DNA of 64,000 nucleotides from an archaeon (GTDB lineage Archaea; SpSt-1190; DYHY01): positions 5,025 through 69,024 of the forward strand of contig JAZDJS010000026.1 of the NCBI GenBank assembly GCA_043803745.1, given 5' to 3'. The notes beneath the pieces are model-generated. The model had not been told where the DNA came from, did no database searches, and saw only the letters and a list, made by a program, of their open reading frames with translations. Below are positions 50,385 through 64,000 of the stretch, in pieces. Position 1 is the first letter of the stretch. Every line of letters starts with the position of its first letter. The position numbers and the translations under genes are program-made.

Positions 50385-52160
50385 ATGACCAAAAGAATTG
50401 CAATAGTCAGGCTGGAAAAGTGCAAGGCGCCGAAGGACTGTCCGTATCTCTGCATACGGGCGTGCCCCCCCGTGCGCGCAGGAAAGCAGACGATAATCGA
50501 AAACAAGGAGACGGGGAAGATAATAATCGAGGAGGAAACCTGCATCGGCTGCGGACTGTGCGTCAAAAAATGCCCTTTCGACGCAATAACCATAATCAAT
50601 CTCCCGGAAGCCCTTGCCGAACCAATCCATCGTTTCGGGAAAAACAGCTTCGCACTTTACGGGCGGACGCTCCCCTTCCCCGAAAAAGGGGCCGTGACCG
50701 GCTTCCTCGGGCCGAACGGCTGCGGCAAGACAACCGTGGTCTCAATACTTTCCGGCTCGCTAATCCCCAACCTCAACTCCCAGGAGGAAGGGCGCCTTCC
50801 CGCGGTAATTGAGCACTTCGCAGGGCAGGAGATACAGAAGCATTTCAAGGTTCTTGAGAAGGGCTCCCTTCGAGCGGCTGTGAAGCCGCAGCAAATTTCC
50901 GTGAGCGGAAGGATTGGCGAGACGCTCGTTTCCGAGGCAGCGGCGAAGGTTCCGGAGGAGACCCTCAGGGAGTTCAACATCAGGCCCCTTTTTGGGAGGA
51001 AGATTTCAGAGCTTTCCGGCGGCGAGCTCCAGAGGCTGACAATCGCCCTTGCATATGGGAAGGATGCGGACCTTTATTTCTTCGATGAGCCCTCCTCATT
51101 CCTCGACATCCGGGAGAGGATACGGACGGCAAAGCGGCTTCGCAATCTGGCAGGGACCGGCAAATCGGTCTTCCTTGTCGAGCACGACCTCACCCTCCTC
51201 GACACCGCGTCCGACAACGTGATCCTTTTCTACGGGGAGCCTTCCGTTTACGGGGTTGTCTCAATTCCGAAGACCCAGCGCGTCGGGATAAACACGTATC
51301 TTTCCGGATTTTCCCGGGACGAGAACATAAGATTCCGCCCCGGGGAGATAAAATTCTCGGAAAGGGCTCCGGTCGAGAAGATGTCGCGAAAGGAAGCAGT
51401 CCAGGAGTTCTCGAAAATAGAGAAGAAGCTCGGCGAGTTCTCCCTATTCGTCGAGGGGGGGAAGATACGCAAGGGCGAAGTTGTCGGAGTTGTCGGGGAG
51501 AACGGGACCGGAAAGACGACCTTCGTGAGAATCCTTGCCGGGGAAATGAAGCCCGACAGGGGCGACGTGAAAAAACAGCTCATGAAGCTTTCCTACAAGC
51601 CTCAGCAGCTTGAAGTCGCGGACAGGGAGCTTGCGGTGCGGCAGTATCTGGCGGTCCCGATTGCCGAGGCAAGCGACCTTAATTTCGAGAGCGAGGTTGC
51701 CGAGCCGCTCAGCCTGAGGCTCCTGATGCAGAAGAAGTTGGGCGAGCTTTCCGGCGGCGAGCTCCAGCGGGTTGTTATCGCTGCCGCAATGATGAAGAAG
51801 GCGGACCTGTACCTCCTTGACGAGCCCTCGGCTTTCCTTGACGTCGAGCAAAGGCTCGAGGTTGCAAAGTTCATCAAGCGCGTGAACGAGAAACGGGGGG
51901 CGGGCGTCCTCGTCGTCGACCACGACGTGCTGTTCATAGATTACCTTGCCGACAGCCTCGTCGTCTTCTCCGGAACCCCCGCGGTTTCAGCGAAGGCGGT
52001 CGGACCCCTGACAATGCGGGAAGGGATGAACCTTTTCCTTTCCGATCTCGGAGTGACTTTCAGGAGGGATCCCGACACCAAGAGGCCGCGCGCCAACAAG
52101 GAAGACAGCCGGCTTGACCGGGAGCAGAAGGGCACCGGGGAATATTACTTTTCGGGATAA
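50385..52160 (+). CDS. abcE1: ABCE1 / RNase L inhibitor-type ribosome recycling ATPase
   Basis: An N-terminal diferredoxin Fe-S domain (CKAPKDCPYLCIRACPP...CIGCGLCVKKCPF) and two ABC cassettes (Walker A GPNGCGKTT and GENGTGKTT, with signature motifs). Confidence 0.9.
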   Translation: MTKRIAIVRLEKCKAPKDCPYLCIRACPPVRAGKQTIIENKETGKIIIEEETCIGCGLCVKKCPFDAITIINLPEALAEPIHRFGKNSFALYGRTLPFPEKGAVTGFLGPNGCGKTTVVSILSGSLIPNLNSQEEGRLPAVIEHFAGQEIQKHFKVLEKGSLRAAVKPQQISVSGRIGETLVSEAAAKVPEETLREFNIRPLFGRKISELSGGELQRLTIALAYGKDADLYFFDEPSSFLDIRERIRTAKRLRNLAGTGKSVFLVEHDLTLLDTASDNVILFYGEPSVYGVVSIPKTQRVGINTYLSGFSRDENIRFRPGEIKFSERAPVEKMSRKEAVQEFSKIEKKLGEFSLFVEGGKIRKGEVVGVVGENGTGKTTFVRILAGEMKPDRGDVKKQLMKLSYKPQQLEVADRELAVRQYLAVPIAEASDLNFESEVAEPLSLRLLMQKKLGELSGGELQRVVIAAAMMKKADLYLLDEPSAFLDVEQRLEVAKFIKRVNEKRGAGVLVVDHDVLFIDYLADSLVVFSGTPAVSAKAVGPLTMREGMNLFLSDLGVTFRRDPDTKRPRANKEDSRLDREQKGTGEYYFSG

Positions 52161-53458
52161 ACTTCCCTATTGGTGAGCGCCCTGAAGCCAATTACAAGCG
52201 CGTGCAAAAGCTTGCCAGGGGCGAAAATCTTCCCCGCCAGGGTCATCGGGTTGAGATAATAATTCACAAGCAGCCGTCTTTTGAAACTCCAAAGCCGGGC
52301 TCCACCCCCTTTGTTCAATGTTATGCTTTTTCCAAGGAAGACGCGCTTCGCTTCTGAGCGCCCCTCTTCCGGATATTGCACGAAATTGGAAATCTGGACA
52401 ACGTCGGGCGTTATCCTGAAGACGAGCTCGTATGTTTTTTGGAGGTCGCTTTCGGTTTCCCCCGGACAGCCCACAATGAAATATGCCTGCGTCCGTATGC
52501 CCGCCTTTTTCGCCCTGGCGAAAGTGGACTCTATTCCCCTGACGGAAGTTCTTTTGTTCAGCCTGTCAAGGAGCTCCTGGCTTCCGGATTCAACTCCGAA
52601 GGCAATCAGTTTGCACCCGGCGGCCTTCATGAGGCGCAGTTCTGCCAAGCCAACCGAATCAACCCGTTCCTTGCAAAACCATTCTATCCTCCCTCCGAGC
52701 CCCCGTGAAATTATCTCCTTGCAGAAACTTCGGAGCCATTCCTTTCGGAAGCCGAATATGTCGTCCAGGAAAGCGAAGCGACGTATCCTTTTTTGCTTGA
52801 GCAGGTTTTCCATCAGATTCACGACCTGCTCCGGAGGATAGGCCCTCCAAACACTTCCAGACACGGAAGGGACAACGCAGAAAGAACACTTGTAAGGACA
52901 GCCCGCGCTTGCTCCAACAATTGCGCAGGGCCCTATTATGAACTCCTTGATGATTCCGTAATGGATTGGACCGCCCAATTTCCTTGAAAAACAAACCCGC
53001 CTACGCCCGCCGCTCGGCAAAATGCAGTTCTTCCCAATCAGCTTCCAGTTGCGTTCGAAGCACATTCTCACAAGAGTTTCTTCGGCAAACCCCGCGACAA
53101 CCGCGCTTGCTCCTGAGGATTTCAGCGCAGCATGAGGAGTCAAGGTTGCATGCGGGCCCCCGAGGATGCAAAGAAAACCCCGGCGCCTCAGCCCGGAGCA
53201 AAGACGGCAAATCTCTGGAAAAGACTCGCTGTACGTGTAAAGGCCCACGAAGGCGGGATTCAGGGCGGAAACAAACTCCAGGAAAGCCGTGTCCGAGGGG
53301 AAATCTCCCGCACGAACCAGTTTGGCTTCAACTCCCGCCGCGCCCAGGGCGGAGGACAGTTTCAGCAGCCCGAGCGGGACATCCACCAGGCTTTTTCTGG
53401 ATGCGCCCGGAGCAACAAGAAGAATTTTGGATGCCCAGGGCGCGGTGGCTGCGTTCAT
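52145..53458 (-). CDS. B12-binding (class B) radical SAM protein
   Basis: An N-terminal cobalamin-binding Rossmann domain and a CxxxCxxC motif (SAGCPYKCSFCVVP). Confidence 0.8.
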   Translation of the reverse strand: MNAATAPWASKILLVAPGASRKSLVDVPLGLLKLSSALGAAGVEAKLVRAGDFPSDTAFLEFVSALNPAFVGLYTYSESFPEICRLCSGLRRRGFLCILGGPHATLTPHAALKSSGASAVVAGFAEETLVRMCFERNWKLIGKNCILPSGGRRRVCFSRKLGGPIHYGIIKEFIIGPCAIVGASAGCPYKCSFCVVPSVSGSVWRAYPPEQVVNLMENLLKQKRIRRFAFLDDIFGFRKEWLRSFCKEIISRGLGGRIEWFCKERVDSVGLAELRLMKAAGCKLIAFGVESGSQELLDRLNKRTSVRGIESTFARAKKAGIRTQAYFIVGCPGETESDLQKTYELVFRITPDVVQISNFVQYPEEGRSEAKRVFLGKSITLNKGGGARLWSFKRRLLVNYYLNPMTLAGKIFAPGKLLHALVIGFRALTNREVYPEK

Positions 53459-53522
53459 TCTCGGGGAATCCCGCCCGGCGCGAATAAAAAGCTTGCCAGC
53501 CGGCGATTCCCGCGGTCAAGCG

Positions 53523-55472
53523 CTAAGCCAGAAGGAGGGGGAGAAAGCCCGCAACCGAAGCCGCCAGCAAAAACGTGGAGGACCACAGCCGATTTTCGGC
53601 GGAAGCATAGCTGAACGAAAGTTCAAATTCCTCCCCCGGAGCAACTTCAAAGTATACTCCGCATCCGCGCGCACCCGGCCGCGCCGAGTTACCAGCCTTT
53701 CCGTTGATTGAAAGCGAGATTTGCGGGTCGTAAACGAGAGGAAAGAAGCCCTTTGTCGAGTTGCACTTGCCAAGAATCGAACCCCCGCTCTTCCGGTATG
53801 AGCACCCGACTTCCGAGGCGAGGCTTCTGAGATTCCTGTCGAAAACGGATATGTCGGAAAATTCGGCGACTTTTTCACCGCTTTGGGGAGCGCCCCCGGG
53901 ATTTCCGAAACTGAATTCCCTGGCTATTTCCAGCGCATCCTTCTCGTCCTCGACAGCCTCTTCCACTTGGAGCCGGCCCACCGGATAAAGAACCCCATAG
54001 TACTCTCCGGCGGGCCTCACCTGAAGAAGCTTCAGGAAGAAACCCCCGGACCTTTGGGAGTTGTCGACGATGACAGACGTCTTTTTCGGGAAGGGCGGGG
54101 CGTTCTCAACGGACCAGGCAAGAAGCTCCGAGTCGGAATCTTCCATCCTCCCGGACAATACGGCCGCGTTCGGAAACTTCCCGTGTTCCTTTTCAAAGTC
54201 GTAATGCAGGGCCTTGCCGAAGGAATCCGGCCCCCCCGAGAGGGCGCCAACGAAGAAAAAGAACTGAACTGCGAAGAGCAGGGTTGCCACAATGGTCGCC
54301 GGAAGAAAGGCCGATTTTTCCCCGTCTTGCGAGGGGATAAGCTCGCCCACCAAGAGAGCCGCGCCAACCCAAATGACCGGCACCAGATAGTAGCCCAGAA
54401 AAGCCTCCAGATAGACGCTTCCGGAAAAATTCAAAAGCGCCCCCAAAAGGAGAACAACCCCAAAGGACGCGTATCTTTCGACAGTTTCCGATTTCCGTTT
54501 GGAAAAAACTAGCGAGACTGCGCCCAGAAGGCCCCCGAAAAGGAGGATTGGCGCAATCGAGCTCTGATAAAGGAAATTCGGAACGAATGTTTTGGAATTT
54601 TCAGGCCTTGCAAGGCTGAGGTCCTGGAAGAAGTGCGAAAACACCTCGGCGATGGGAAGACTGAGGAGCCCGCTGTAGAAAACCAGAAACGCACCGAACG
54701 CCATTATGGGAAGCGCGACCAGGGCGGCAAGCGACGCGAGCCCCCCCGTCCCAGACCTCCTGCGGAAGACGCGCGAAACCAGCTCTCGCAGAAAAACGAC
54801 GGCGGCAACGGAGACGAACGTCCCGTTGTGAAAAAGGTAGGCGCTTCCGCCCAGAAGGAAAGAGGCAACCGGCCCGATGCGCTTTCCCATCAGCAGGGGC
54901 ATTGAAACTGCCAACGCGAGGTAAACCGAATAGTTCCCTATTATGAACTGCTGGTGCGGCTGCAGGACCGCCCACGCGACTGCCGCAGCAAACCCGCTCG
55001 CGCGTTTGTCTCTTGTTGAAAGTACGATCGAAACCGGAACCGAGGCGAAAGCGAGAAAAAGCGCAAGCCTCCACGAAAACTCCCCGCTTGCGGGAATGAA
55101 AAGCGAGACAACCCCGGAAATGAACGTCAGGATGAATTTGTTTATGTGGACCGGCGATATCAGGCGAAAGTTCGAATAAGCGTCATCCGAAAGAAAAAGC
55201 TTTCTTGCCCCGTCGAAAAACGCGTACTGGAGCGGAGAGTCCCCGACCAGAGGGATCCCTCCGGAAAACCCCCCCATCGAAAGGAACTGGACGAATGCAA
55301 TGCAGATTATGGAGACGAGCCTTGCCTTCGGGTGGCGCAGCCCAAGAAGAAAAAGCAGGGCGAATGCAGCAGTTTTTCCCAGGGCGGTTGCGGGCGAGAG
55401 CGAAGGCATTGCGAGAACGCTGAAAACCAGCAAAACAAGCAGAAACGGGAACCTTGTTGATTGGCCGGACAT
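53523..55472 (-). CDS. large polytopic membrane protein with periplasmic-type C-terminal domain (function unknown)
   Basis: About 12 TM helices, then a ~200-aa soluble domain and a terminal hydrophobic segment. The architecture is the same as ORF 5182-7374, which also sits next to a B12-rSAM gene. Confidence 0.5.
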   Translation of the reverse strand: MSGQSTRFPFLLVLLVFSVLAMPSLSPATALGKTAAFALLFLLGLRHPKARLVSIICIAFVQFLSMGGFSGGIPLVGDSPLQYAFFDGARKLFLSDDAYSNFRLISPVHINKFILTFISGVVSLFIPASGEFSWRLALFLAFASVPVSIVLSTRDKRASGFAAAVAWAVLQPHQQFIIGNYSVYLALAVSMPLLMGKRIGPVASFLLGGSAYLFHNGTFVSVAAVVFLRELVSRVFRRRSGTGGLASLAALVALPIMAFGAFLVFYSGLLSLPIAEVFSHFFQDLSLARPENSKTFVPNFLYQSSIAPILLFGGLLGAVSLVFSKRKSETVERYASFGVVLLLGALLNFSGSVYLEAFLGYYLVPVIWVGAALLVGELIPSQDGEKSAFLPATIVATLLFAVQFFFFVGALSGGPDSFGKALHYDFEKEHGKFPNAAVLSGRMEDSDSELLAWSVENAPPFPKKTSVIVDNSQRSGGFFLKLLQVRPAGEYYGVLYPVGRLQVEEAVEDEKDALEIAREFSFGNPGGAPQSGEKVAEFSDISVFDRNLRSLASEVGCSYRKSGGSILGKCNSTKGFFPLVYDPQISLSINGKAGNSARPGARGCGVYFEVAPGEEFELSFSYASAENRLWSSTFLLAASVAGFLPLLLA

Positions 55473-55511
55473 TAGTTTGACTGGCCGCTTGGCCGCAAAT
55501 TATAACTCTTT

Positions 55512-56909
55512 CTAGGTGGGATATGTGTGGCCGAGAAGCTCCCTTCCTTCCGGGGTCTTCGAATATTCGTAAACGTCAACCTGCCTTGAATAGTCGACGT
55601 TGTGCTGGGTCGAGATGTCGGCTATGTGGAGCTGGAGCATGTCGCGCCGGTCAAGAGACTTGTATATGCCCGCTATCCTGTCGAACCCGCTTCCAAGAAG
55701 GGAAACAAGAACCTTGCGATTCTCATTCTCAAACAAAATCGGAAACGCGCTGATAAGGGCCGTCATCCCATTCCGCCCCTTGAGAAACCCTTCGAGCCCC
55801 TTGCTGACGGAGTTGAGGAAGCTTTCCGTGAAGAGCGGGGTGTAGAACCCCTTTTCATCCACTTTCAACAGTATGGAATATCCCCGCCCCCATGCGAATT
55901 TCCGGGCAGCGTCCCTTCCAAAGAGCCGTTCTATGCAGTCAAGGGCGAGCCGTCGGGTCCTTAGGAGGCTTTCGAAATCTGAGGATTTCACCCGTCCCTC
56001 CGTCTGCGCCTCAAGGAGCTTTATTATGTCGGACGAAGTGAGAAGCCAGTCGTGCTTTATTTTCAGTTTCCCGTACGGCTTCATCGGGTGGAACATCACC
56101 CTCGCCGCCCCGTTCTTCGCGGCAAAGTCGAGTATTCCCGAAACCTCCCCGTCATTCACGCCCTTGGCGATTGTGGCAACGAGGCAAGTGGGGATCCCTT
56201 CAGCCCGGAGGTTTTCAAAGGCGGAAAGCTTGGCTTTCAAAAGATTCTTCCCCTTCATTTTCACGTATGCTGAACCATTCAGGGAATCGAAAGAAAGGTT
56301 GACCAGGCTTATGCGCGCCGCCTTCATTTTCTTCACGAACGGCCTGCTCGCAAGCCTTTTTCCGTTCGTATAAAGGACAACGAAATTCCCGCTCTCCCTG
56401 AAAGTTTCGACAATTTCAAGGAAATCCTTGTGGATTGTGGGCTCTCCCCCGACAAGGAGGATCTCCTTTCCCCTGAGGGACGCCCTTTCTATCACGGACT
56501 TGATTTCCGCGACGGTCAGCTGTTTTTTCCGGGTGATGGAACTTTCGCACATGAAATCCCTTGCAATGCAGACCGAACAGTTCGCGTTGCAGCGCGGCGT
56601 CACGAAGAAGCCTATCGCATGGGAGCTGACCTTGCCGAGGTCTTCCACCCTTGCCTGAGCCGGGTCGGACTCGGGCGGGAACGAATCGATCGTCCTCCTG
56701 AAGAAATCCGCATCGTTCTCAACGAGGCACCGTTCATGGACCCCGCAAGGAACGCAGTCTTTTTCAAGAAAAATCCGTCCGTTTTCCTCGGAAATTTCGC
56801 CGCTAACTTTCCCAAAGCACTTTGAACAGAGACTTTCCGTCCTGTAGAGGGGGACTGCGCCCCGCAATTGAGTTTCCTGCAGTTGGACTTGCGTGGATGA
56901 ACTCGCCAT
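55512..56909 (-). CDS. radical SAM protein with N-terminal 2xCxxC zinc-ribbon/rubredoxin-like knuckle and C-terminal domain of unknown function
   Basis: CSKC...CVPC precede a canonical CNANCSVC radical SAM motif. Only four more Cys follow, so a full twin-cluster SPASM domain is unlikely. Start placed at MASSS, with TATAATAAAG ~25 nt upstream on the minus strand. Confidence 0.7.
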   Translation of the reverse strand: MASSSTQVQLQETQLRGAVPLYRTESLCSKCFGKVSGEISEENGRIFLEKDCVPCGVHERCLVENDADFFRRTIDSFPPESDPAQARVEDLGKVSSHAIGFFVTPRCNANCSVCIARDFMCESSITRKKQLTVAEIKSVIERASLRGKEILLVGGEPTIHKDFLEIVETFRESGNFVVLYTNGKRLASRPFVKKMKAARISLVNLSFDSLNGSAYVKMKGKNLLKAKLSAFENLRAEGIPTCLVATIAKGVNDGEVSGILDFAAKNGAARVMFHPMKPYGKLKIKHDWLLTSSDIIKLLEAQTEGRVKSSDFESLLRTRRLALDCIERLFGRDAARKFAWGRGYSILLKVDEKGFYTPLFTESFLNSVSKGLEGFLKGRNGMTALISAFPILFENENRKVLVSLLGSGFDRIAGIYKSLDRRDMLQLHIADISTQHNVDYSRQVDVYEYSKTPEGRELLGHTYPT

Positions 56910-56919
56910 GCTTCCGGGG

Positions 56920-57030
56920 GGCAATCTCTCTTTATTATAGTTATTGGTGCCCGGAACGCCCGTCCGCTCTTTTTGCGAAACGCGGAGGCGCCCGGCCCGT
57001 TGAACAGGTTTTATATATTCGGCCGGAACT
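56920..57030. promoter_or_regulatory. divergent promoter region with two A/T boxes (TATAATAAAG for minus gene; TTTTATATATT for plus gene)
   Basis: A 130-bp spacer between divergently transcribed radical SAM genes. Each A/T box lies ~20-30 nt from its ATG. Confidence 0.35.
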
Positions 57031-57039
57031 GCTGCGGGA

Positions 57040-58494: not shown

Positions 58495-59337
58495 ATGAAG
58501 CCGGGGAAACTGATTCTTGCAGCGATGCTAATCTCGTTGACCGTTCTTTCCGGGTGCAGCATGAGCCTCGGCGACAACGTCCAGTTCGGGCAATTCGGGA
58601 AGGAGGTCCTGGCCGAAACGGCCCGGACGTATGAAGGGGATTTTCTCCCCCTTCAGGAGGAATATCGCGCCGAGATGCTCCTCTCGGCAGCGAACGGGAC
58701 GTTCGCCTATTCGGAAACCCGGCGCTCCCTCTCGCGCGCCAACGCATGGAGCAACCTGCATCGGCTGATCTCGCCCCTTTATTCGTGCTTCGACATCTCG
58801 TTCGATTCCCCGCCGCAGAGATTCATTTGCCCTGACGAGTTCAAGAGCTTCAGCGACTTTAGGGAGGACATTTATTCGGTTGCGCTCTCAAGGAACTCGG
58901 TCGCTTCCCGCGTCCCCTCCCTTTTCGCAATACACTATCCGTTCCCGGTTCTGACGGTCAACGGACAGGGCATGAAACTTGAGAACTTCAGCGCCTCGAG
59001 CAAGCCGTCCTATTCGGAAATAATGAGAATGGCCGAGAAGCCCATGCGGCTCACGTCGGTAAACTCAACCGAGGAACGCGCCGGATTTTCGGCAGGCTTC
59101 GAAACGGGAGACACGCTCTGCGTCGATTTCGGTTTCCTTCCGAAGAGGTCGCAGGAAATTTCCGTTGCATCCGACCTTCCCTTCCTGAACTACACCTTCT
59201 ATGGACGGCTCCCGGAAAGCAACATGCGCGTCGAGCGGACTCAGCAGGGGAGACTGGTTTTCAAATATGACGCGTTCGACCCGGAATACATGAACCTCAC
59301 CCTTGCAAAGGTCTGCTTCGGACGAACCGGAGGGTGA
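58495..59337 (+). CDS. putative secreted lipoprotein
   Basis: A signal peptide with a lipobox-like LSGC, followed by a hydrophilic domain. No family recognised. Confidence 0.4.
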   Translation: MKPGKLILAAMLISLTVLSGCSMSLGDNVQFGQFGKEVLAETARTYEGDFLPLQEEYRAEMLLSAANGTFAYSETRRSLSRANAWSNLHRLISPLYSCFDISFDSPPQRFICPDEFKSFSDFREDIYSVALSRNSVASRVPSLFAIHYPFPVLTVNGQGMKLENFSASSKPSYSEIMRMAEKPMRLTSVNSTEERAGFSAGFETGDTLCVDFGFLPKRSQEISVASDLPFLNYTFYGRLPESNMRVERTQQGRLVFKYDAFDPEYMNLTLAKVCFGRTGG

Positions 59338-59347
59338 CTGCGCCGAA

Positions 59348-60781
59348 GTGAAGCCGCGAGTTCTCCTTGTCAATCCCCCCGCCATCCAGGGGAACTTCGT
59401 CCGCGAAGGGCGCTGCATGAACCGGCAATCCGCATGGGGGTCGATTTGGCCGCCGCTGACCCTGATGTACATCTCGGCCGTGCTGAGGAAGGCAGGCTAC
59501 CGGACAATGATAGCGGATTCAAACGTCGGGAGCCCGGAGAGCTTTTGGAGAAGAATAGGGGAATTCCGCCCGGAACTCTCAATAATCAGCACTTCAACGC
59601 CGACAATAGACTCGGACGTCGGGTTTGCCGGAACGCTCAAGAGGAAATTTTCCTCAAAAACGGCGCTTGTCGGAACCCACCCGACCGCAACCTGGCGGGA
59701 ATTGCTTTGCAGGCCCTCGGTCGATTTCGTTGTCAGGGGGGAGCCCGAGCAGACGTGCCTCGAGCTTGCCAGTTTCCTCGGCAAGCGCGGGAAGGGGTCC
59801 CCCGGAAAAATCCGCGGTCTTGCATGGAAGGCCGGCAGGCACGGAAGACCCGTCTCAAACCTGGCGAGGAAATTTCTTTCCAACCTTGACAGGCTCCCCT
59901 TCCCAGACAGGGATTCAATTGACAACACAGCATACAGGATGCCCCTGTCCGGAAGGAGCTTCTCGCTACTCAGCACCTCCCGCGGATGCCCGTATTGCTG
60001 CACGTTCTGCGTTGCCTCGATATTTTACGGGAAAAGCTTCCGCAAACGGTCCGCAGGGTCAATTGCCGACGAAATTGAGATTTGCAAGAGGAAATACGGA
60101 ATCGAAAACTTCCTTTTCTGGGCCGACGAATTCACGTTCGACAGGCGGCAGGTGAGGGAAATCTGCAGGGAAATAAAATCCCGGAAGCTGAAAATCTCCT
60201 GGTTCGCGAACAGCCGGGTCGATTCCGGCGACTATGCCCTTTTCCGCGAGATGAGGGAATCCGGATGCTTCCTCGTCTCCTTCGGAATAGAGTCGGCAAG
60301 CCAGAAAATACTTGACAACGCGAGGAAGGGGGCGACAGTCGAGCGGGCGCTCTCCGCCGTCAGGGATGCCAAGAGGGCGGGCCTCGAAGTGATAGGCCAT
60401 TTCATTTTCGGCCTCCCGGGAGAAACGAAGGAGACTCTCCGGGCAACGACCGACCTTGCGAAAAGAAGCGGGGTTGACTATGCCCAATTTTACGCCGCAA
60501 CGCCATATCCCGGGACGGTTTTCTACGAGCGGTGCCGGAAAGGCAACCTGATAGCCGCCGATGCGGACTTTTCCGAAATGGAAATAAGCAGGGCGGCGAT
60601 ACGGCAGGGCGAGCTTTCAGCTGACGAGCTTTCCGAAGCAAGGCGGCGCGCATACGCGGAGTTCTACTTGCGCCCGTCCTACTTCATCCCCAGGATTCTT
60701 TCAGTCCTTTTCAGAAACGGTCCGAAGGGGCTTTTGGATTCCTTCGACTACCTCTCCGACTGGGGGGGACTTGCGAAGTGA
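59348..60781 (+). CDS. B12-binding (class B) radical SAM protein
   Basis: A cobalamin-binding N-domain and a CxxxCxxC motif (SRGCPYCCTFCVAS). Likely GTG start at 59348 after GGAGGGTGA. The stop overlaps the next gene's GTG start (GTGA). Confidence 0.8.
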   Translation: MKPRVLLVNPPAIQGNFVREGRCMNRQSAWGSIWPPLTLMYISAVLRKAGYRTMIADSNVGSPESFWRRIGEFRPELSIISTSTPTIDSDVGFAGTLKRKFSSKTALVGTHPTATWRELLCRPSVDFVVRGEPEQTCLELASFLGKRGKGSPGKIRGLAWKAGRHGRPVSNLARKFLSNLDRLPFPDRDSIDNTAYRMPLSGRSFSLLSTSRGCPYCCTFCVASIFYGKSFRKRSAGSIADEIEICKRKYGIENFLFWADEFTFDRRQVREICREIKSRKLKISWFANSRVDSGDYALFREMRESGCFLVSFGIESASQKILDNARKGATVERALSAVRDAKRAGLEVIGHFIFGLPGETKETLRATTDLAKRSGVDYAQFYAATPYPGTVFYERCRKGNLIAADADFSEMEISRAAIRQGELSADELSEARRRAYAEFYLRPSYFIPRILSVLFRNGPKGLLDSFDYLSDWGGLAK

Positions 60782-61593
60782 GCCTTTATTCAAGCGCGAA
60801 ACCCCTGTCGGATTTCTACAGGCTGAAGGAGCACCTGCCGATTCTTGCTCTGGCTTTCGCGCCATTCGCAGCCGCGGGCTTCCCGGATTGGCGCTTGTTC
60901 GCCCTCGACCTCGCGGCAACCTTCCTCGCCCTTTCCTCCATATATTCGGTCAACAATTTCTTCGACTCGATCTCCGGGGAGCGGAATCCCGCCGGTTCCG
61001 TCAGGCGGCTGAGCGGGAAAGCCCCCGCATTCTTCCTCTCGATCCTTCCCGGGATTGCCTCGGTCTTCCTGGGGAGCCTCCTTCCCGGGAAATGCTTTTT
61101 CCTCCTCCTCGCAATCCTCCTGATTTTCCTCGCCTATTCGGCGGACTTCCCGAGGGCGCGGAACATCCCCGGGCCCGACTTTCTCCTGAACGTTCTCGGG
61201 TTCTACCTTGTTTTCGCCAAATCCTATTTCCTCTATTTCAAGGAGACGGGGGCCTTTTTCATTGCGTTTTCGGTTTTCATAGTTTCCTTCTATTCGGTTT
61301 CCGAAGCGGTACACCAGCTCGCCCATGAAAGGGAGGATTCCCGGCTCGGGAGAAAAACCCTTTTCGGAATTCTCGGGCGCGGCGGCGCAATAGCGCTCTC
61401 GGCAGCCCTCCTTGCGCTTCCGATAATCTTCTGGAGGGGACTTCCGTCCGCCGCATCCCTCGCATTTTCAGCCCTGAGGCTCTTCTCAGTTGCTTCAACT
61501 TCAGGGGATTTCCGGGCCCTCCGGAAAGAACTCTACGGCCGGGAAGAGCTTGCCGTCCAGCTCGCGCTTTTCGCTTTCCTCGTTCCCGCCTGA
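60778..61593 (+). CDS. polytopic membrane protein resembling UbiA-superfamily prenyltransferases with degenerate Asp motifs
   Basis: Eight to nine TM helices. The first loop reads NNFFDSISGERN (compare N(D)xxDxxxD). The second motif HEREDSRLGRKTLFGILG closely parallels UbiA DRDDDVKIGIKSTAILFG. Confidence 0.4.
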   Translation: MSLYSSAKPLSDFYRLKEHLPILALAFAPFAAAGFPDWRLFALDLAATFLALSSIYSVNNFFDSISGERNPAGSVRRLSGKAPAFFLSILPGIASVFLGSLLPGKCFFLLLAILLIFLAYSADFPRARNIPGPDFLLNVLGFYLVFAKSYFLYFKETGAFFIAFSVFIVSFYSVSEAVHQLAHEREDSRLGRKTLFGILGRGGAIALSAALLALPIIFWRGLPSAASLAFSALRLFSVASTSGDFRALRKELYGREELAVQLALFAFLVPA

Positions 61594-61621
61594 AAGCCAT
61601 TATAAACTTCCGGGCGCGCCA

Positions 61622-62653
61622 ATGCGGGTGAGCGGATTTTCCAGGAGCGCCAGATTCCTGAAAGGGCTCGCGCTTTCAAGGCTTGGAAGGTCGGTCCCCC
61701 TTTTCGTCGGGCACACGATAAACTTCAAGTGCAACCTTTCATGCGCCTATTGCGGGACGTGGAGGGACGCGCGCACCAGGGAGCTTCCGACCGGAAAAGT
61801 ACTGGAGATGATTGACGCCTTTTCGAGGGCGGGGACGGTCTCATGGAACCTTTCCGGGGGCGAACCCCTCCTCCGGGAAGATATCGGGGAGATAATCGGT
61901 TTCGCAAGGGAGAAGGGGCTCGCGGTTTCGGTCAACACCAACGGAATACTCGTTCCGGAAAAGCTGGAAAGCCTCGGGCGCGCCGACCTTCTGAGCGTTT
62001 CAATTGACAGCGGCGAGCGGGAAAACGACCTGGTCCGCGGAAAAGGTTCGTTCAGGAAAGCGGTCAAGGGAATTCTCGCGGCGAAAAAGGCGGGGATAAA
62101 AACATCGATAATGGCAGTCCTTTCCCCGGCAACGCTCTCATCCGGCTGCAAGGGGGTTGCGCGGGCAATCGCCCTTTCCAGGAAGCTCGGGGTCCAGATC
62201 GCCTTCCAGCCAATGCACGGGGATTCCTACAACCGAATTGGCGGGGGAATCGGCTACACTCAGGCGGTTTTCCGGAATCCGAACTATCAGAACGCGATTT
62301 CCCTGATTGAATCCGAGAAAAGAAGGAATCCCCGGAGGATACGGATGTCCTGGGGCTATCTTCGGAAGCTCAGGAGCCTGAAGCCCCACAACTGCTTCGC
62401 AGGAAGGAACTTTTGCATAATATTCCCGGACGGGAGAATCGCCCCTTGTTTCGTCAGGGGCCCGGCAGCCTCCCCGAGGGCATCCCCGAGGGCAACCCCG
62501 AGGGCAACCCCGAGGGCAACCCCGGAAAACTTCGCAAGGCTTGCCAGAACCTCCTCCTGTTTCTGCCATTTCAACTGCTATTCGGAATGGAACGCGCTCC
62601 TCTCGCTTGAGCCGGAAAGCATCCTCCACTACGCTTCAAACTATTTCGGCTGA
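61622..62653 (+). CDS. radical SAM/SPASM-domain protein
   Basis: A CNLSCAYC radical SAM motif plus seven downstream Cys (SGCK, HNC, NFC, APC, CFCHFNC) consistent with a SPASM/twitch domain. Start placed at MRVSGF after the previous stop. Confidence 0.75.
   Translation: MRVSGFSRSARFLKGLALSRLGRSVPLFVGHTINFKCNLSCAYCGTWRDARTRELPTGKVLEMIDAFSRAGTVSWNLSGGEPLLREDIGEIIGFAREKGLAVSVNTNGILVPEKLESLGRADLLSVSIDSGERENDLVRGKGSFRKAVKGILAAKKAGIKTSIMAVLSPATLSSGCKGVARAIALSRKLGVQIAFQPMHGDSYNRIGGGIGYTQAVFRNPNYQNAISLIESEKRRNPRRIRMSWGYLRKLRSLKPHNCFAGRNFCIIFPDGRIAPCFVRGPAASPRASPRATPRATPRATPENFARLARTSSCFCHFNCYSEWNALLSLEPESILHYASNYFG
62472..62519. repeat. 12-nt tandem repeat (CCCCGAGGGCAA)x4, in-frame PRAS-PRAT-PRAT-PRAT inside the SPASM domain
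   Basis: Directly visible in the sequence. It is inserted between the 4th and 5th auxiliary-cluster cysteines. Confidence 0.85.
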
Positions 62654-62744
62654 TCTGAGAGCCGCCTAGGAGGCCGCGGACCGGCAAAAGGAAAACGTTT
62701 TTTATCTTGAAACGCAGGATGTTTCCGTGGCCCCTTCCGGAAGG

Positions 62745-64000
62745 ATGAAATCAGTTGCGCTATCCCTGATAGTGATTTCAATCCTCCTTCGCGCAGCGTT
62801 CTTCCTCTCCCCGACATATTATGCCGAGGAGAACATCTCGGTTGCAATGGCGCTCTCGATAGAGTCCGGGGCAAGCCCATATGCGGATTTCTTCCATGCC
62901 CACCCCCCGCTCCACCTTTTCCTTCTTGCCGTTTTCAGGCAGGTTTCCGGCCTTGAGCCGATTCTTTCGGCAAAGCTCCTTTCCCTCCTGCTTTCCGTCC
63001 TCATGGTCTTTTTCATCTGGCGGCTGGGCGGGCCCTTTTCAGCAGCAATATTTTCCTGCGCGTTCCCTTCCTTCTACTGGTTCTCCTTTTCCCTCCCCCT
63101 GGTTCCGCTTTCGCTCTTCCTTCTGGCTGCGTATTTTTCCGAGAGGCGGCTGGGCGGGGGGGCGGCTTTCCTCCTATTCAGCATTTGCGCATTCCTCTCG
63201 GAGTTTTCGGCGGCAACCCTGATTTTTCCGATGCTCCTTTTTTCCGGAAGGCTGAAATCTCCGGGAGAAAAAATCCGCGCAGCAGCGGTTGCCGCAAGCG
63301 TCCTCGGCATCGCCTTCCTGCTGCTCTCGCTTCCCACCGGAGGGAAATTCCTCGGCCAGGCGGCGTTCTCCCAGCTTTCCGGGCGGTTCGCCAGTACGCC
63401 TTTGGGAGCCAGCGTAGCGGAAAACCTCAGCCAGTATTTCCTCTGGATATTCATCTATTCCGCCCCGCTTTTCGCGCTCTCCCTTTTTTCAGGCGACCGG
63501 AAGCCCCTCGCGCTCTCCCTTTTTTCAGGAGCGATATTGGTTCTCGCGCTTCCGGGACTTTCCAACAACACCCTGCAGTTCCTCGTCCCCTTCCTGTCGA
63601 TTTCAGCCGGGGGTTTCAGGAGAAAAAGCGCCCTGCCAGCGGTTTCAATTGCCTTGGCAGCACTTTCAATATTCCTCCTATTCAGGGCGGGGCTTTTCAG
63701 CCCGGCAACGCCCGCCCTTGACAGGATAGTTTCCGCAGCCGAGGCTTCGGCGGAGCCGGGGCTCGGCGAGATTTGGGGGACGCCCGAGGCGATTCTGGTC
63801 TCAATCAAGACAGGCATCCCGGTTGCCTCGCGCTTTTTCGACACAACCCCCTTCTCAGTTGCGGAACAGGGCGCGCCTCCCCGTCCGGACCTGCTCGTGA
63901 TTTCATCCTATTACTACGAAAGCCGGATTTACGGGAGCCTGGAGGATTACCAGCTGGTTTTCTCTTCCAGGGAACCGATTGTCGGGGAAATAGGCGTTTA
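62745..64000 (+). CDS. GT-C family (ArnT/PMT-like) membrane glycosyltransferase, 3' end outside window
   Basis: The frame is open from ATG 62745 to the window end and is not in the ORF track because it has no stop. N-terminus: TM helix, AEENISVAMALS...SPYADFFHAHPPLHLFL (compare the ArnT/PMT DE..Y...KPPL motif), followed by more than ten TM helices. Confidence 0.55.
   Translation, partial: MKSVALSLIVISILLRAAFFLSPTYYAEENISVAMALSIESGASPYADFFHAHPPLHLFLLAVFRQVSGLEPILSAKLLSLLLSVLMVFFIWRLGGPFSAAIFSCAFPSFYWFSFSLPLVPLSLFLLAAYFSERRLGGGAAFLLFSICAFLSEFSAATLIFPMLLFSGRLKSPGEKIRAAAVAASVLGIAFLLLSLPTGGKFLGQAAFSQLSGRFASTPLGASVAENLSQYFLWIFIYSAPLFALSLFSGDRKPLALSLFSGAILVLALPGLSNNTLQFLVPFLSISAGGFRRKSALPAVSIALAALSIFLLFRAGLFSPATPALDRIVSAAEASAEPGLGEIWGTPEAILVSIKTGIPVASRFFDTTPFSVAEQGAPPRPDLLVISSYYYESRIYGSLEDYQLVFSSREPIVGEIGV

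What the first reader, a model, noticed from the sequence alone, without database searches (positions are those of the whole stretch)
52145..64000. Bidirectional cluster of five radical SAM enzymes with a UbiA-like protein and membrane glycosyltransferase-like proteins
Within 12 kb there are three B12-binding radical SAM paralogues (52145-53458, 57040-58416, 59348-60781), two further radical SAM proteins (55512-56909 with an N-terminal 2xCxxC knuckle; 61622-62653 SPASM-type), a UbiA-like polytopic protein translationally coupled to one B12-rSAM (GTGA overlap at 60778-60781), a lipoprotein, a 649-aa polytopic membrane protein and an ArnT/PMT-like GT-C enzyme. They are organised as two divergent operons from a shared A/T-box promoter region (56920-57030). 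B12-rSAM enzymes perform chemically difficult alkylations and cyclisations on unactivated carbons; in archaea, members of this family make GDGT cyclopentane rings (GrsA/GrsB). Their co-localisation with a prenyltransferase-like protein and membrane enzymes points to an isoprenoid-lipid or envelope-glycan tailoring system. I do not recognise a described operon of this composition. This is an inference from domain content only.
Basis: partly seen in the sequence, partly recalled or inferred. Interest (0 to 1): 0.8.

Follow-up and report, generated by a model that had tools for sequence, protein, structure and literature searches.

The report
Archaeal radical-SAM envelope glycolipid gene cluster
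An uncultured archaeon carries a real, conserved 12-kb cluster of five radical-SAM enzymes, a divergent prenyltransferase-like protein and membrane glycosyltransferase-like proteins; it most likely builds and radically re-tailors a lipid-linked sugar for the cell envelope rather than cyclising or cross-linking membrane-lipid tails, and its chemistry is uncharacterised.

Summary
All nine genes are at the stated coordinates with the stated domains, in two divergent operons, and the B12-rSAM stop and UbiA start overlap by 4 nt (GTGA).

It is not a chance juxtaposition. Three related uncultured archaea (L006, L007, L089) keep lipoprotein, B12-rSAM, UbiA, SPASM-rSAM and short GT-C in the same order, plus the pair of Tes-like rSAM and a roughly 650-aa membrane protein. 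A fourth (L003) keeps a reduced, rearranged version.

The GDGT/GrsA-type reading is not supported:
- The Tes-like enzyme keeps the zinc ribbon and CX3CX2C but lacks the cysteines of both auxiliary [4Fe-4S] clusters of GDGT-MAS.
- The conserved B12-rSAM (HpnJ/AprD4-like) belongs to a large family that sits in glycan loci. Of 75 loci, 53 have glycan-type neighbours. A recurrent operon is ArnC-like GT2, B12-rSAM, carbamoyltransferase, PMT_2 GT-C.
- The terminal membrane protein is a full-length homologue of a short PMT_2 GT-C (hhalign 93.6%).

Best reading (confidence about 0.45): an isoprenoid-anchored sugar is made by the UbiA-like enzyme, re-tailored by radical SAM enzymes and passed on by GT-C enzymes to an envelope acceptor. 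No biochemistry exists. The UbiA-like protein and the 649-aa protein are near-orphans, and both structure predictions failed. I rate it a new variant of a known kind, of moderate interest.

The parts
52145..53458 (-). B12a: B12-binding radical SAM protein (437 aa), last gene of the minus-strand operon. It is a lineage-specific paralogue, 35% identical to B12b.
   Evidence: Pfam B12-binding plus Radical_SAM. No NCBIfam cut-off reached. Paralogy shown. Absent from L006, L007 and L089; a similar 431-aa rSAM is present in L003.
53523..55472 (-). mem649: polytopic membrane protein (649 aa) with about 10 TM segments, an ecto-domain of about 220 aa and a C-terminal anchor. It is the conserved downstream partner of the Tes-like rSAM. 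Its family is unknown.
   Evidence: Hydropathy. 31-34% identity to the N-terminal 400 aa of the protein downstream of the Tes-like gene in L089 and L007; the L006 homologue is nearly identical to those two. No Pfam, NCBIfam or PDB match. Only itself among 1.84 billion representatives.
55512..56909 (-). TesL: Tes/GDGT-MAS-like radical SAM protein (465 aa) with an N-terminal CX2C-X20-CX2C zinc ribbon and CX3CX2C, but without either auxiliary-cluster motif.
   Evidence: Pfam Zn_ribbon_HMPTM plus Radical_SAM. NCBIfam TrsS 151 bits against 490 and Tes 133 against 450. PDB 7TOL at 125 bits over residues 17-379. Cysteine-column analysis.
56910..57039 (.). Divergent 130-bp intergenic region with two A/T-rich TATA-box-like elements, one facing each operon.
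   Evidence: Read directly from the sequence. Consensus resemblance only; not tested.
57040..58416 (+). B12b: B12-binding radical SAM protein (458 aa), first gene of the plus-strand operon. It is a lineage-specific paralogue.
   Evidence: Pfam. Best solved relative is AprD4 (6FD2) at 92 bits. Its nearest relatives among the fetched loci sit next to GT2 and LPG_synthase_TM genes.
58495..59337 (+). Lipobox protein (280 aa), predicted extracytoplasmic and disulfide-bonded. In relatives it always heads the core operon.
   Evidence: Invariant LSGC lipobox and four conserved Cys in four orthologues. No Pfam match.
59348..60781 (+). B12c: the conserved B12-binding radical SAM protein (477 aa), HpnJ/BchE/AprD4-like, translationally coupled to the UbiA-like gene.
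   Evidence: HpnJ 232 bits against 577.6 over the full length; BchE 177 bits. AprD4 (6FD2) 106 bits. Orthologues at 47-57% identity in L003, L004, L006, L007 and L089. Family context.
60778..61593 (+). UbiA-like polytopic protein (271 aa) with altered Asp-rich motifs: NNxxD...GE and HxRxD.
   Evidence: PF01040 at 49.2 bits. Alignment with L006, L007 and L002 homologues. GTGA overlap. Only one relative found by the word-indexed search of 5.8 billion proteins.
61622..62653 (+). rSAM5: radical SAM protein (343 aa) with a SPASM-like C-terminal Cys pattern. It contains a window-specific (PRAT)n insertion.
   Evidence: Pfam Radical_SAM. PTO1314 family 92 bits against 306. Best solved relative is BlsE, cytosylglucuronate decarboxylase, at 48 bits. 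Conserved Cys columns. Tandem repeat.
62745..64000 (+). Short GT-C-type (PMT_2-like) membrane glycosyltransferase candidate. 418 of about 440 aa are visible; the ORF is cut by the window end.
   Evidence: Translation. Orthologues at 39-40% identity in L003, L006, L007 and L089. hhalign against a 433-aa protein with a PMT_2 hit on record, from a Parvarchaeota MAG: probability 93.6%, E 2e-7, 368 columns. hhalign against a set of 12 PMT_2 proteins: probability 73%. No direct Pfam or PDB hit.

Best explanation
The cluster encodes a membrane-associated pathway that makes an isoprenoid-anchored sugar-type intermediate, rewrites the sugar by radical chemistry in the cytoplasm, and hands it to the outside of the cell.

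Proposed steps (all inferred unless marked):
1. The UbiA-like enzyme joins an isoprenoid lipid to a sugar or polyol. It could do this like DGGGP or chlorophyll synthase (prenyl diphosphate onto an oxygen) or like DPPR synthase (activated pentose onto polyprenyl phosphate). In this lineage it stands where an ArnC-like GT2 stands in related operons elsewhere.
2. B12c (HpnJ/AprD4-like) is translationally coupled to the UbiA gene. Together with the SPASM-type rSAM5 it re-tailors the lipid-linked sugar, for example by ring contraction to a cyclitol, deoxygenation, C-methylation or decarboxylation.
3. The short PMT_2-like GT-C uses the product as a donor, or otherwise processes it, on the extracytoplasmic face. 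The acceptor could be the lipobox protein, the giant surface proteins encoded nearby, or an envelope glycan.
4. The pair of Tes-like rSAM and mem649, and the extra paralogues B12a and B12b, add further lineage-specific modifications, possibly on the lipid part.

What is shown: gene content, domain families, conserved order and coupling, and the glycan-type genomic context of the B12c family. What is inferred: every substrate and reaction.
For: - Conserved core. Lipoprotein, B12c, UbiA (4-nt overlap), rSAM5, GT-C and a 304-aa gene occur in that order in L006, L007 and L089. The pair TesL plus a roughly 650-aa membrane protein is kept in the same genomes.
- Context of B12c's nearest out-of-lineage relatives (38-42% identity). 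In 9 of 12 there is a roughly 248-aa GT2 within three genes upstream. In 4 of 12 the B12 gene is followed by carbamoyltransferase and PMT_2 GT-C; a fifth is followed by carbamoyltransferase alone.
- Context across 75 loci. GT2 is directly adjacent in 28. The triplet B12, carbamoyltransferase, GT-C occurs in 8. Any glycan-type neighbour occurs in 53.
- That GT2 is ArnC/PgfS/AglJ-like (85 bits, full length, below the cut-offs).
- The same theme appears in the Pfam-annotated contexts of Aenigmatarchaeota and Parvarchaeota genomes and in L004, which has GT2, GT4, a Wzx-like flippase, PMT and AglB/STT3. One family member is fused to a GT2 domain (P0145).
- The closest solved relatives act on sugars: AprD4, an aminoglycoside diol dehydratase, for B12c and B12b, and BlsE for rSAM5. 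The best curated family for B12c is HpnJ, the putative enzyme that contracts a lipid-linked glucosamine into a cyclitol (PMC13459092).
- The terminal gene is a full-length homologue of a PMT_2 GT-C.
- In two independent lineages a TesL-like gene again sits with a UbiA-like gene. In L001/L002 they lie together with a B12-rSAM, GT2, polysaccharide deacetylase, PMT_2 and a sulfatase-family enzyme; in L090 the two genes are adjacent.
- A second locus in the same window repeats the theme: B12-rSAM, a polytopic 730-aa protein and GT2.
Against: - There is no experimental data for any member.
- The cluster contains no nucleotide-sugar enzyme, GT2 or flippase, so the sugar part is inferred only from relatives.
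- The UbiA-like protein shows no detectable similarity to DPPR synthase. Its weak best matches are chlorophyll synthase and DGGGP-synthase-type prenyltransferases, and its second Asp-rich motif is degenerate.
- GT-C assignment of the last gene is transitive (profile-profile), not a direct Pfam or PDB hit.
- mem649 has no assignable family.
- The closest characterised relative of TesL is a lipid-tail enzyme, which keeps a lipid-tail role open.
- Guilt by association is drawn from homologues at 28-43% identity, and B12-rSAM families change function easily.
Confidence: 0.45

Rival explanations
1. Membrane-lipid head-group pathway. The end product is itself a membrane lipid whose sugar head group is rearranged, like the calditol of Sulfolobus (Cds) or the hopanoid cyclitol ether (HpnI/HpnK/HpnJ). 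The UbiA-like enzyme forms the ether link to the isoprenoid, and the GT-C-like proteins extend or flip the lipid.
For: B12c's best curated family is HpnJ, with a full-length alignment at 232 bits. HpnJ and Cds are proposed ring-contraction enzymes acting on lipid-bound sugars (PMC13459092). The related locus L001 has GT2, a polysaccharide deacetylase and a B12-rSAM, the same trio of enzyme types as HpnI/HpnK/HpnJ. The weak best matches of the UbiA-like protein are O-prenylating enzymes: ChlG and DGGGP synthase.
Against: The HpnJ score is far below the 577.6 cut-off. The window cluster has no GT2 or deacetylase. GT-C enzymes normally consume lipid-linked donors rather than build head groups (established knowledge). 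The recurrent GT2, B12, carbamoyltransferase, GT-C operon looks like an Arn-type donor pathway.
Confidence: 0.2
2. Hydrocarbon-chain tailoring of archaeal ether lipids. The Tes-like enzyme couples or modifies lipid tails. The B12-rSAMs cyclise, methylate or desaturate them, as GrsA/B, Gmm, the GDGT methylases and Ted do. The UbiA-like enzyme is a DGGGP-synthase-like ether former.
For: The only characterised relative of TesL is GDGT-MAS (7TOL, E 3e-35). All known archaeal lipid-tail modifiers are rSAM or B12-rSAM enzymes (bioRxiv 10.1101/2025.10.20.683597; PMC13459092). A UbiA-family protein is present.
Against: The TesL clade lacks the Cys ligands of both auxiliary clusters, and GDGT-MAS chemistry goes through a substrate carbon-sulfur bond to one of its [4Fe-4S] clusters. 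Its Tes model score is 133 against 450. The genomic contexts of the B12c family are overwhelmingly glycan-type. The cluster always includes a GT-C-like protein and a lipobox protein, which tail chemistry does not need. No geranylgeranyl reductase, GGGP synthase or other lipid-core genes are nearby.
Confidence: 0.15
3. Protein or peptide maturation. The radical SAM enzymes (B12-type C-methylases plus a SPASM enzyme) post-translationally modify a protein substrate, such as the lipobox protein or the giant surface proteins.
For: B12-rSAM plus SPASM-rSAM pairs are typical of RiPP loci. ApyD and rSAM_ocin_1 appear among the sub-threshold hits. A conserved secreted Cys-rich lipobox protein heads the operon.
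Against: There is no short precursor ORF; intergenic gaps are 10-91 nt. No peptidase, transporter or RRE-type gene is present. All RiPP-family scores are far below their cut-offs. This reading does not explain the UbiA-like and GT-C-like partners.
Confidence: 0.05
4. Cofactor tailoring (tetrapyrrole or quinone). A BchE-like cyclase is paired with a ChlG-like prenyltransferase.
For: B12c scores 177 bits on BchE. The only solved relative of the UbiA-like subfamily is chlorophyll synthase: E 0.13 for the profile and 5e-6 for the L002 homologue.
Against: Both scores are far below family thresholds. No other tetrapyrrole or quinone genes are in the window. The conserved partners are a lipoprotein and large membrane proteins. 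BchE-type annotation is a common default for unassigned B12-rSAMs (JGI names).
Confidence: 0.04

Closest known systems
Hopanoid side-chain pathway HpnI (GT2), HpnK (deacetylase), HpnJ (B12-type radical SAM): formation of bacteriohopanetetrol cyclitol ether
   Same: B12c aligns with the HpnJ model over its full length (232 bits). The wider family is usually adjacent to a GT2 (28 of 75 loci). The related locus L001 adds a polysaccharide deacetylase. In both cases the proposed logic is radical rearrangement of a lipid-bound sugar.
   Different: The score is well below the HpnJ cut-off. The organism is an archaeon, and hopanoids are bacterial lipids. The window cluster has no GT2 or deacetylase, and it has UbiA-like, SPASM-rSAM, GT-C-like and Tes-like partners that the hpn locus lacks. 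HpnJ chemistry is itself only inferred from a knockout (PMC13459092).
Arn pathway (ArnC GT2, ArnD deformylase, ArnE/F flippase, ArnT GT-C), which puts L-Ara4N on lipid A
   Same: The recurrent operon around B12c relatives has an ArnC-like GT2 (85 bits) and a PMT_2/ArnT-type GT-C with modifying enzymes in between. The window keeps the GT-C end of that layout.
   Different: The modifying enzymes are a radical SAM enzyme and a carbamoyltransferase instead of a deformylase. In the window a UbiA-like protein stands in place of the GT2. The acceptor is unknown, and archaea have no lipid A.
Mycobacterial decaprenyl-phospho-arabinose route: UbiA-family DPPR synthase Rv3806c plus GT-C arabinosyltransferases Emb/Aft (from my own knowledge)
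   Same: It is the only known case in which a UbiA-family enzyme makes the lipid-linked sugar donor that GT-C enzymes consume. That is the role proposed here for the pair of UbiA-like and GT-C-like genes.
   Different: No sequence similarity to DPPR synthase was detected. The Asp-rich motifs differ. Tailoring here would be by radical SAM enzymes, not by a DprE1/E2 epimerase. This is an analogy, not homology.
Tetraether synthase Tes / GDGT-MAS (MJ0619; PDB 7TOL, 7TOM)
   Same: N-terminal rubredoxin-like CX2C-X20-CX2(C/H) domain and radical SAM core, with E 3e-35 over residues 17-379.
   Different: It lacks the [Fe4S4]N ligands C73/C77/C80 and all conserved C-terminal cluster cysteines (against PMC9433317). 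It scores 133 bits against the 450 cut-off. It is paired with an orphan 650-aa membrane protein.
Archaeal lipid B12-rSAMs: GrsA/GrsB ring synthases, Gmm, GDGT methylases, Ted desaturase
   Same: The same domain architecture, B12-binding Rossmann domain plus rSAM TIM barrel (PMC13459092; bioRxiv 10.1101/2025.10.20.683597).
   Different: The genomic context of the window family is glycan-type rather than lipid-type.
AprD4 (PDB 6FD2), radical SAM diol dehydratase of apramycin biosynthesis
   Same: It is the closest solved structure by sequence for B12c (106 bits over residues 33-433) and for B12b (92 bits). It acts on a sugar ring.
   Different: The NCBIfam AprD4 score is 138 against 500. AprD4 works on a soluble pseudodisaccharide in an antibiotic pathway together with a reductase partner, and none is present here.

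Membership tests
Tetraether synthase Tes / GDGT-MAS | N-terminal rubredoxin-type metal site CX2C-X20-CX2H | tested here: met
   The window protein has CSKC-X20-CVPC. The columns are conserved in all clade members. Pfam Zn_ribbon_HMPTM at E 3.7e-9.
Tetraether synthase Tes / GDGT-MAS | Radical SAM CX3CX2C cluster | tested here: met
   The motif CNANCSVC is present. Columns 185, 189 and 192 are invariant.
Tetraether synthase Tes / GDGT-MAS | N-terminal auxiliary [Fe4S4] cluster ligated by C73, C77, C80 and a His (PMC9433317) | tested here: not met
   The region is deleted in the window protein and in its L006, L007, L089 and L001 relatives. Canonical family members keep the cysteines.
Tetraether synthase Tes / GDGT-MAS | C-terminal auxiliary [Fe4S4] cluster domain | tested here: not met
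   All Cys columns conserved in canonical members (407-412, 500-503, 548-569) are non-Cys in the TesL clade.
Tetraether synthase Tes / GDGT-MAS | NCBIfam NF045702 equivalog score of at least 450 bits | tested here: not met
   132.9 bits; TrsS NF045646 gives 151 against 490.
GDGT ring synthases GrsA/GrsB | B12-binding domain plus radical SAM domain | tested here: met
   Pfam PF02310 plus PF04055 in B12a, B12b and B12c. This feature is shared by the whole class B superfamily and is not diagnostic.
GDGT ring synthases GrsA/GrsB | Phylogenetic placement with Saci_1585 / Saci_0240 | not testable with these tools
No curated NCBIfam model was reached by any paralogue.
GDGT ring synthases GrsA/GrsB | Association with lipid-core genes or GDGT producers | tested here: inconclusive
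   No lipid-core genes were found in the 64-kb window. Family contexts are glycan-type. The lipid content of this MAG is unknown.
HpnJ (TIGR03471) | Equivalog score of at least 577.6 bits | tested here: not met
   B12c scores 232.4 bits over the full length; B12a 98 and B12b 80.
HpnJ (TIGR03471) | Neighbouring HpnI-type GT2 and HpnK-type deacetylase | tested here: not met
   Both are absent from the window cluster. A GT2 is adjacent in 28 of 75 family loci, and GT2 plus Polysacc_deac_1 occur in L001.
UbiA prenyltransferase superfamily | Pfam PF01040 above the gathering score; polytopic membrane protein | tested here: met
   49.2 bits against 34.2. At least 5 strong hydrophobic segments.
UbiA prenyltransferase superfamily | First Asp-rich motif NDxxDxxxD | tested here: inconclusive
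   The window has NNFFDSISGE; relatives have NDLFDSRITGE. The third Asp is replaced by an invariant G-E one position on.
UbiA prenyltransferase superfamily | Second Asp-rich motif (DxxxD ... G.K[ST]) | tested here: inconclusive
   Only H183, R185, D187, G191 and K193 are invariant (HxRxD...GxK). The upstream acidic residues are not conserved.
GT-C glycosyltransferases (PMT_2 / ArnT type) | Direct match to PMT, PMT_2 or another GT-C profile | tested here: not met
   No Pfam family at E 1e-3 or better. No PDB match with a 4-sequence profile.
GT-C glycosyltransferases (PMT_2 / ArnT type) | Profile-profile homology to proteins carrying PMT_2 | tested here: met
   hhalign probability 93.6%, E 2e-7, over 368 of 432 columns against a 433-aa Parvarchaeota protein with a PMT_2 hit on record. 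Probability 73%, E 3e-5, against a set of 12 PMT_2 sequences.
GT-C glycosyltransferases (PMT_2 / ArnT type) | Acidic motif in the first extracytoplasmic loop and at least 8 TM helices | tested here: met
   Invariant YYAEE aligns with YYDED of the PMT_2 set. 9 hydrophobic segments in the 418 aa visible.
SPASM/twitch radical SAM subfamily (rSAM5) | C-terminal Cys-rich auxiliary-cluster motif | tested here: inconclusive
   Seven conserved Cys follow the core (C..C..C ... CxCxxxC) in all orthologues. The window protein has no Pfam SPASM hit. A remote neighbour-cluster relative does have PF13186.

The most novel reading that the evidence does not exclude
The cluster makes a previously unknown class of archaeal envelope lipid or lipid-linked donor. 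A non-canonical UbiA enzyme with HxRxD in place of the second Asp-rich motif attaches an isoprenoid to a sugar. That sugar is then converted by an HpnJ/AprD4-like B12-rSAM and a SPASM-rSAM into a carbocyclic or C-alkylated polyol. A cluster-less Tes-like enzyme performs a new single-radical reaction on the lipid. This would amount to a radical-SAM route to glycolipid anchors. It would share logic with the widespread but uncharacterised GT2, B12-rSAM, carbamoyltransferase, GT-C operon of anaerobic bacteria and DPANN archaea.
Probability: 0.2. Interest if true: 0.78.

Novelty: new variant of a known kind. Interest (0 to 1): 0.55.

Why it matters
If the reading is right, radical SAM chemistry extends from archaeal lipid tails, where all characterised archaeal cases lie except calditol synthase, to lipid-linked sugars of the cell envelope.

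It would also give a first functional handle on a very large unassigned B12-rSAM family. That family has more than 6,000 relatives at E 1e-10 or better among the 8,000 scored candidates, and it sits in glycosylation loci of many anaerobic bacteria and small-genome archaea.

The finding defines two unusual enzyme types worth biochemistry:
- a Tes-like radical SAM enzyme stripped of both auxiliary clusters;
- a UbiA-family protein with altered metal-binding motifs that is translationally coupled to a radical SAM enzyme.

For lipid-biomarker work it is a caution. Tes-like and B12-rSAM hits in archaeal MAGs should not be read as GDGT synthesis or cyclisation without checking cluster ligands and genomic context.

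Tried and rejected
- Exact-sequence look-ups of window proteins found no record, so the 7 kb of the source contig beyond the window could not be read.
- Structure prediction failed twice: the UbiA-like protein with a 2-sequence alignment (mean pLDDT 44) and mem649 as a single sequence (pLDDT 42). Both models are unusable, so no fold search was run.
- mem649 gave nothing in any comparison: hhalign against PMT_2 sets, against the window GT-C, and against L004 and L092 membrane proteins; a PDB profile search; and an exhaustive phmmer against 1.84 billion representatives, which returned only itself. The one weak signal is to the window's 730-aa protein (probability 26%).
- PDB searches for the UbiA-like protein gave only a weak chlorophyll synthase match and no DPPR synthase or DGGGP synthase match. 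The DPPR-synthase idea therefore remains an analogy.
It missed the closest relatives and did not name the taxon.
- The metagenome scan with the UbiA profile gave only 2 loci.
- Literature searches for the assembly accessions, for TrsS function and for the GT2, B12-rSAM, carbamoyltransferase, GT-C operon found nothing useful.
- Readings considered and rejected: chance juxtaposition (rejected by synteny), a RiPP cluster (no precursor ORF), and a tetrapyrrole pathway (no other pathway genes).
- The sigma-70 promoter and terminator scan is not applicable to an archaeon and was ignored.

Full report
**Source and setting**

The window is archaeal. Immediately left of the finding lie TFB (47836-48765), Trm1 (48776-49855), a small cytidylyltransferase-like gene and ABCE1/RLI (50385-52160). 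Elsewhere there are PCNA, FtsZ and a eukaryote-type topoisomerase IB. Three cluster proteins are identical to NCBI proteins named only 'MAG... [archaeon]', on a 71,422-nt contig. The taxon could not be resolved. ABCE1 is a housekeeping gene and converges on the first cluster gene, so the left border of the cluster is 52145. The right border lies beyond the window.

**Checking the observation**

- There are three proteins with B12-binding plus radical SAM domains. I call them B12a (52145-53458, minus strand), B12b (57040-58416, plus) and B12c (59348-60781, plus).
- A radical SAM protein with an N-terminal CX2C-X20-CX2C zinc ribbon lies at 55512-56909 (minus). I call it TesL.
- A fifth radical SAM protein, rSAM5 (61622-62653), has seven further conserved cysteines in a SPASM-like pattern. 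The window protein itself has no Pfam SPASM hit.
- A UbiA-family protein (60778-61593) scores 49 bits on PF01040, above the 34-bit threshold.
- A 280-aa protein has a lipobox (LSGC) and four further cysteines that are invariant in four orthologues.
- A 649-aa protein (mem649) has about ten N-terminal hydrophobic segments, an ecto-domain and a C-terminal anchor.
- An ORF from 62745 runs off the window end.
- The GTGA stop/start overlap of B12c and the UbiA-like gene is real.
- The 130-bp divergent spacer contains a TTTATATA box 22 nt upstream of the plus-strand ATG and an A/T box facing the other way. These are pattern matches only.

B12a and B12b are 35% identical to each other. B12c is 27% identical to B12b over the full length, and 37% to B12a over only the radical SAM core.

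**Synteny**

The block is not a chance juxtaposition. Three related uncultured archaea share it: L006, L007 (GCA_037442745.1) and L089. Their ABCE1 is 76-77% identical to the window's. All three carry, in the same order, a lipobox protein, B12c (57%), UbiA-like (43%, with the same 4-nt overlap), rSAM5 (52-56%), the terminal membrane protein (39-40%, full length about 440 aa) and a 304-aa gene. On the other side of the ABCE1-Trm1 housekeeping block they carry a sulfatase-family gene, TesL (36-39%) and a roughly 650-aa membrane protein. The N-terminal 400 aa of that protein in L089 and L007 is 31-34% identical to mem649, and the L006 copy is nearly identical to those.

A fourth relative, L003 (GCA_020723935.1; TFB 95% identical), keeps B12c, rSAM5, the terminal membrane protein and a B12a/b-like gene. 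Of the UbiA gene it retains only a 120-aa remnant.

So there is a conserved core (lipoprotein, B12c, UbiA, rSAM5, membrane protein) and a conserved pair (TesL, mem649). B12a and B12b, and the fusion of both modules into one divergent unit, are specific to this genome.

**The Tes-like enzyme**

Its only characterised relative is GDGT-MAS/Tes (7TOL, E 3e-35 over residues 17-379). GDGT-MAS has a rubredoxin site, an N-terminal auxiliary [Fe4S4] cluster on C73/C77/C80 plus His, the radical SAM cluster and a C-terminal auxiliary cluster. [quoted passage not shown]

In an alignment with canonical family members, the clade containing the window protein and its L006, L007, L089 and L001 relatives keeps the ribbon and CX3CX2C. 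It has a deletion where the N-terminal cluster motif should be, and it has no cysteine in any of the conserved C-terminal cluster columns. It scores 133 bits on the Tes model (cut-off 450) and 151 bits on the function-unknown TrsS model (cut-off 490). It is therefore a member of the superfamily but fails the defining features of a tetraether synthase.

**The B12 radical SAM enzymes**

None reaches a curated family threshold. B12c aligns full-length with HpnJ (232 bits against 578) and BchE (177 bits). B12a and B12b match only generic cores. By sequence, the closest solved structure for B12c and B12b is AprD4, a sugar diol dehydratase.

B12c belongs to a very large family: more than 6,000 proteins at E 1e-10 or better among the 8,000 candidates scored. 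At about 40% identity these come from Desulfobacterota, Acidobacteriota, Planctomycetota, Omnitrophota and Myxococcota, and from Altiarchaeota, Parvarchaeota, Woesearchaeota, Aenigmatarchaeota and Undinarchaeales. One member is fused to a GT2 domain.

I fetched 80 loci of this family, called ORFs, clustered the neighbours and annotated the cluster representatives. The commonest neighbours are:
- a roughly 248-aa GT2 that is ArnC/PgfS/AglJ-like (40 loci, directly adjacent in 28 of 75);
- a SPASM radical SAM protein (17 loci);
- a NodU-like carbamoyltransferase (14 loci);
- a PMT_2 GT-C (10 loci);
- GT4, NAD-dependent sugar epimerases, DegT aminotransferases and LPG_synthase_TM proteins.

Of 75 loci, 53 have at least one such neighbour, and 30 have two or more B12-rSAM paralogues. 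The order GT2, B12-rSAM, carbamoyltransferase, PMT_2 GT-C recurs. Among the 12 best out-of-lineage relatives of B12c, 9 have the GT2 within three genes upstream and 4 are followed by carbamoyltransferase and GT-C.

Contexts with Pfam hits on record show the same thing. They come from a complete Aenigmatarchaeota genome, a Parvarchaeota MAG and L004, where B12c sits among GT2, GT4, a Wzx-like flippase, PMT and AglB/STT3. B12a, B12b and a fourth paralogue in the window (B12d, 2732-4135) fall in the same broad family. Their nearest relatives among the fetched loci are mostly next to further radical SAM genes, GT2 or amine-oxidase genes.

**The membrane proteins**

The terminal protein has no direct Pfam or PDB match. 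A 4-sequence profile of it aligns over 368 of 432 columns with a 433-aa Parvarchaeota protein. That protein has a PMT_2 hit on record and sits in a locus with two B12-rSAMs and a carbamoyltransferase (hhalign probability 93.6%, E 2e-7). The profile also aligns with a set of 12 PMT_2 proteins at 73% probability, matching its invariant YYAEE to their YYDED loop motif. I accept it as a short GT-C-type enzyme, on transitive evidence.

mem649 stays unassigned despite every comparison tried. It shares its architecture, and a weak signal (probability 26%), with the 730-aa protein of the second B12-rSAM locus.

The UbiA-like protein is a near-orphan. The word-indexed search of 5.8 billion proteins found one relative, and DNA-pattern and context look-ups found a few more. 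Its first motif is N(D/N)xxD...GE. Its second is reduced to HxRxD...GxK. Its only weak solved relative is chlorophyll synthase. NCBIfam gives only generic prenyltransferase and DGGGP-synthase hits far below the cut-offs. It shows no detectable similarity to DPPR synthase.

**Independent recurrences**

A TesL-like gene lies next to or near a UbiA-like gene in two other divergent lineages. In L001/L002 the locus holds TesL (33%), polysaccharide deacetylase, GT2, a B12-rSAM, UbiA-like (24-26%), a methyltransferase, a 639-aa PMT_2 protein and a sulfatase/phosphodiesterase. In L090 the UbiA-like gene (27%) is convergent with a TesL-like gene.

In the window itself, 1329-8515 encodes B12d, a secreted protein, the 730-aa polytopic protein and a membrane GT2.

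Giant surface-type proteins lie close to the cluster in every relative: 2522 aa with Laminin_G_3 and Big_7 hits in L003, 1343 aa with a Big_7 hit in L007, and 1420 aa in L089. In the window, ORFs of 1970 and 2438 aa end about 7 kb upstream.

**Interpretation**

The weight of evidence points to a pathway for an isoprenoid-anchored, radically re-tailored sugar destined for the envelope. That evidence is: a conserved GT-C-type partner, a lipobox partner, the glycan-type context of the B12c family in both domains, sugar-acting closest solved relatives, and recurrence with GT2, deacetylase and PMT_2 genes. In this lineage the UbiA-like enzyme stands where related operons have an ArnC-like GT2. It is the only candidate in the operon for making the lipid-linked intermediate.

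I commit to that mechanism at about 0.45. A variant in which the product is itself a membrane lipid with a rearranged head group (HpnIJK- or calditol-like) gets about 0.2. Peptide or protein maturation and cofactor tailoring are minor rivals. All substrates and reactions are inferred. Only gene content, family membership, conservation and context are shown.

**Novelty and limits**

I found no description of this operon, or of the broader GT2, B12-rSAM, carbamoyltransferase, GT-C operon, in the held literature. The logic resembles the Arn, HpnIJK and mycobacterial DPA routes. I therefore rate it a new variant of a known kind with two unusual enzyme subtypes.

Limits:
- no phylogeny against GrsA/GrsB could be made;
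- both structure predictions failed;
- the taxon and the rest of the genome are unknown;
- the context argument rests on homologues of 28-43% identity in a superfamily known for functional shifts.

Noticed in passing
window 1329-8515: A second radical-SAM and membrane locus. It holds a 214-aa 3-TM protein, a 230-aa protein, a fourth B12-binding radical SAM protein (2732-4135; BchE 127 bits, HpnJ 97), a secreted 345-aa protein, a 730-aa polytopic protein with the same architecture as mem649 (hhalign probability 26%), and a convergent membrane GT2 (7241-8515; MftF-like, 82 bits).
   Followed up: partly
window 8663-10387 (+): A eukaryote-type DNA topoisomerase IB (Topoisom_I_N, Topoisom_I and Topo_C_assoc; E 1e-52 to 1e-62). 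In archaea this enzyme is, to my knowledge, restricted to a few lineages, so it could help place this unclassified MAG.
   Followed up: no
window 31760-37672 and 37672-44988 (+): Two abutting giant ORFs (1970 and 2438 aa) with essentially no Pfam match. Relatives carry giant Big_7 or Laminin_G_3 proteins right beside the radical-SAM cluster (L003, L007, L089). They are possible acceptors of the envelope modification.
   Followed up: partly
window 62472-62524: A 12-nt tandem repeat (4.4 copies, 97% match) inside rSAM5. It encodes a (PRAT/PRAS)n insertion between the SPASM-like cysteines and is absent from all orthologues.
   Followed up: yes
L012, L015, L018, L022, L024, L026, L035, L038; also L091 and L092: A widespread, apparently uncharacterised operon: ArnC/PgfS-like GT2, B12-binding radical SAM, NodU-like carbamoyltransferase, PMT_2 GT-C. 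It occurs in Desulfobacterota, Acidobacteriota and Altiarchaeota, with looser versions in Aenigmatarchaeota and Parvarchaeota. Many loci hold 2-6 B12-rSAM paralogues.
   Followed up: partly
L003 11873-12235 (-): The closest relative (TFB 95% identical) keeps only a 120-aa remnant of the UbiA-like gene (HMM E 1.6e-29), next to B12c and on the opposite strand. It also has fragmented sulfatase, rSAM and B12-binding gene calls between ABCE1 and Trm1. This suggests decay or rearrangement of the system there.
   Followed up: partly
window 53523-55472 (-): mem649 matches only itself among 1.84 billion 50%-identity cluster representatives (phmmer, E 1e-3 or better). Yet it has 31-34% identical N-terminal homologues in L007 and L089, so it is a fast-evolving, lineage-restricted membrane protein.
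   Followed up: yes
window 7241-8515 (-) and 5182-7374 (+), C-termini: Short peptide repeats at the C-termini of two membrane proteins: (RRF)n at the end of the GT2 and (GTS)n near the end of the 730-aa protein.
   Followed up: no
window 1-64000: ARAGORN found no tRNA gene in the whole 64 kb.
   Followed up: yes
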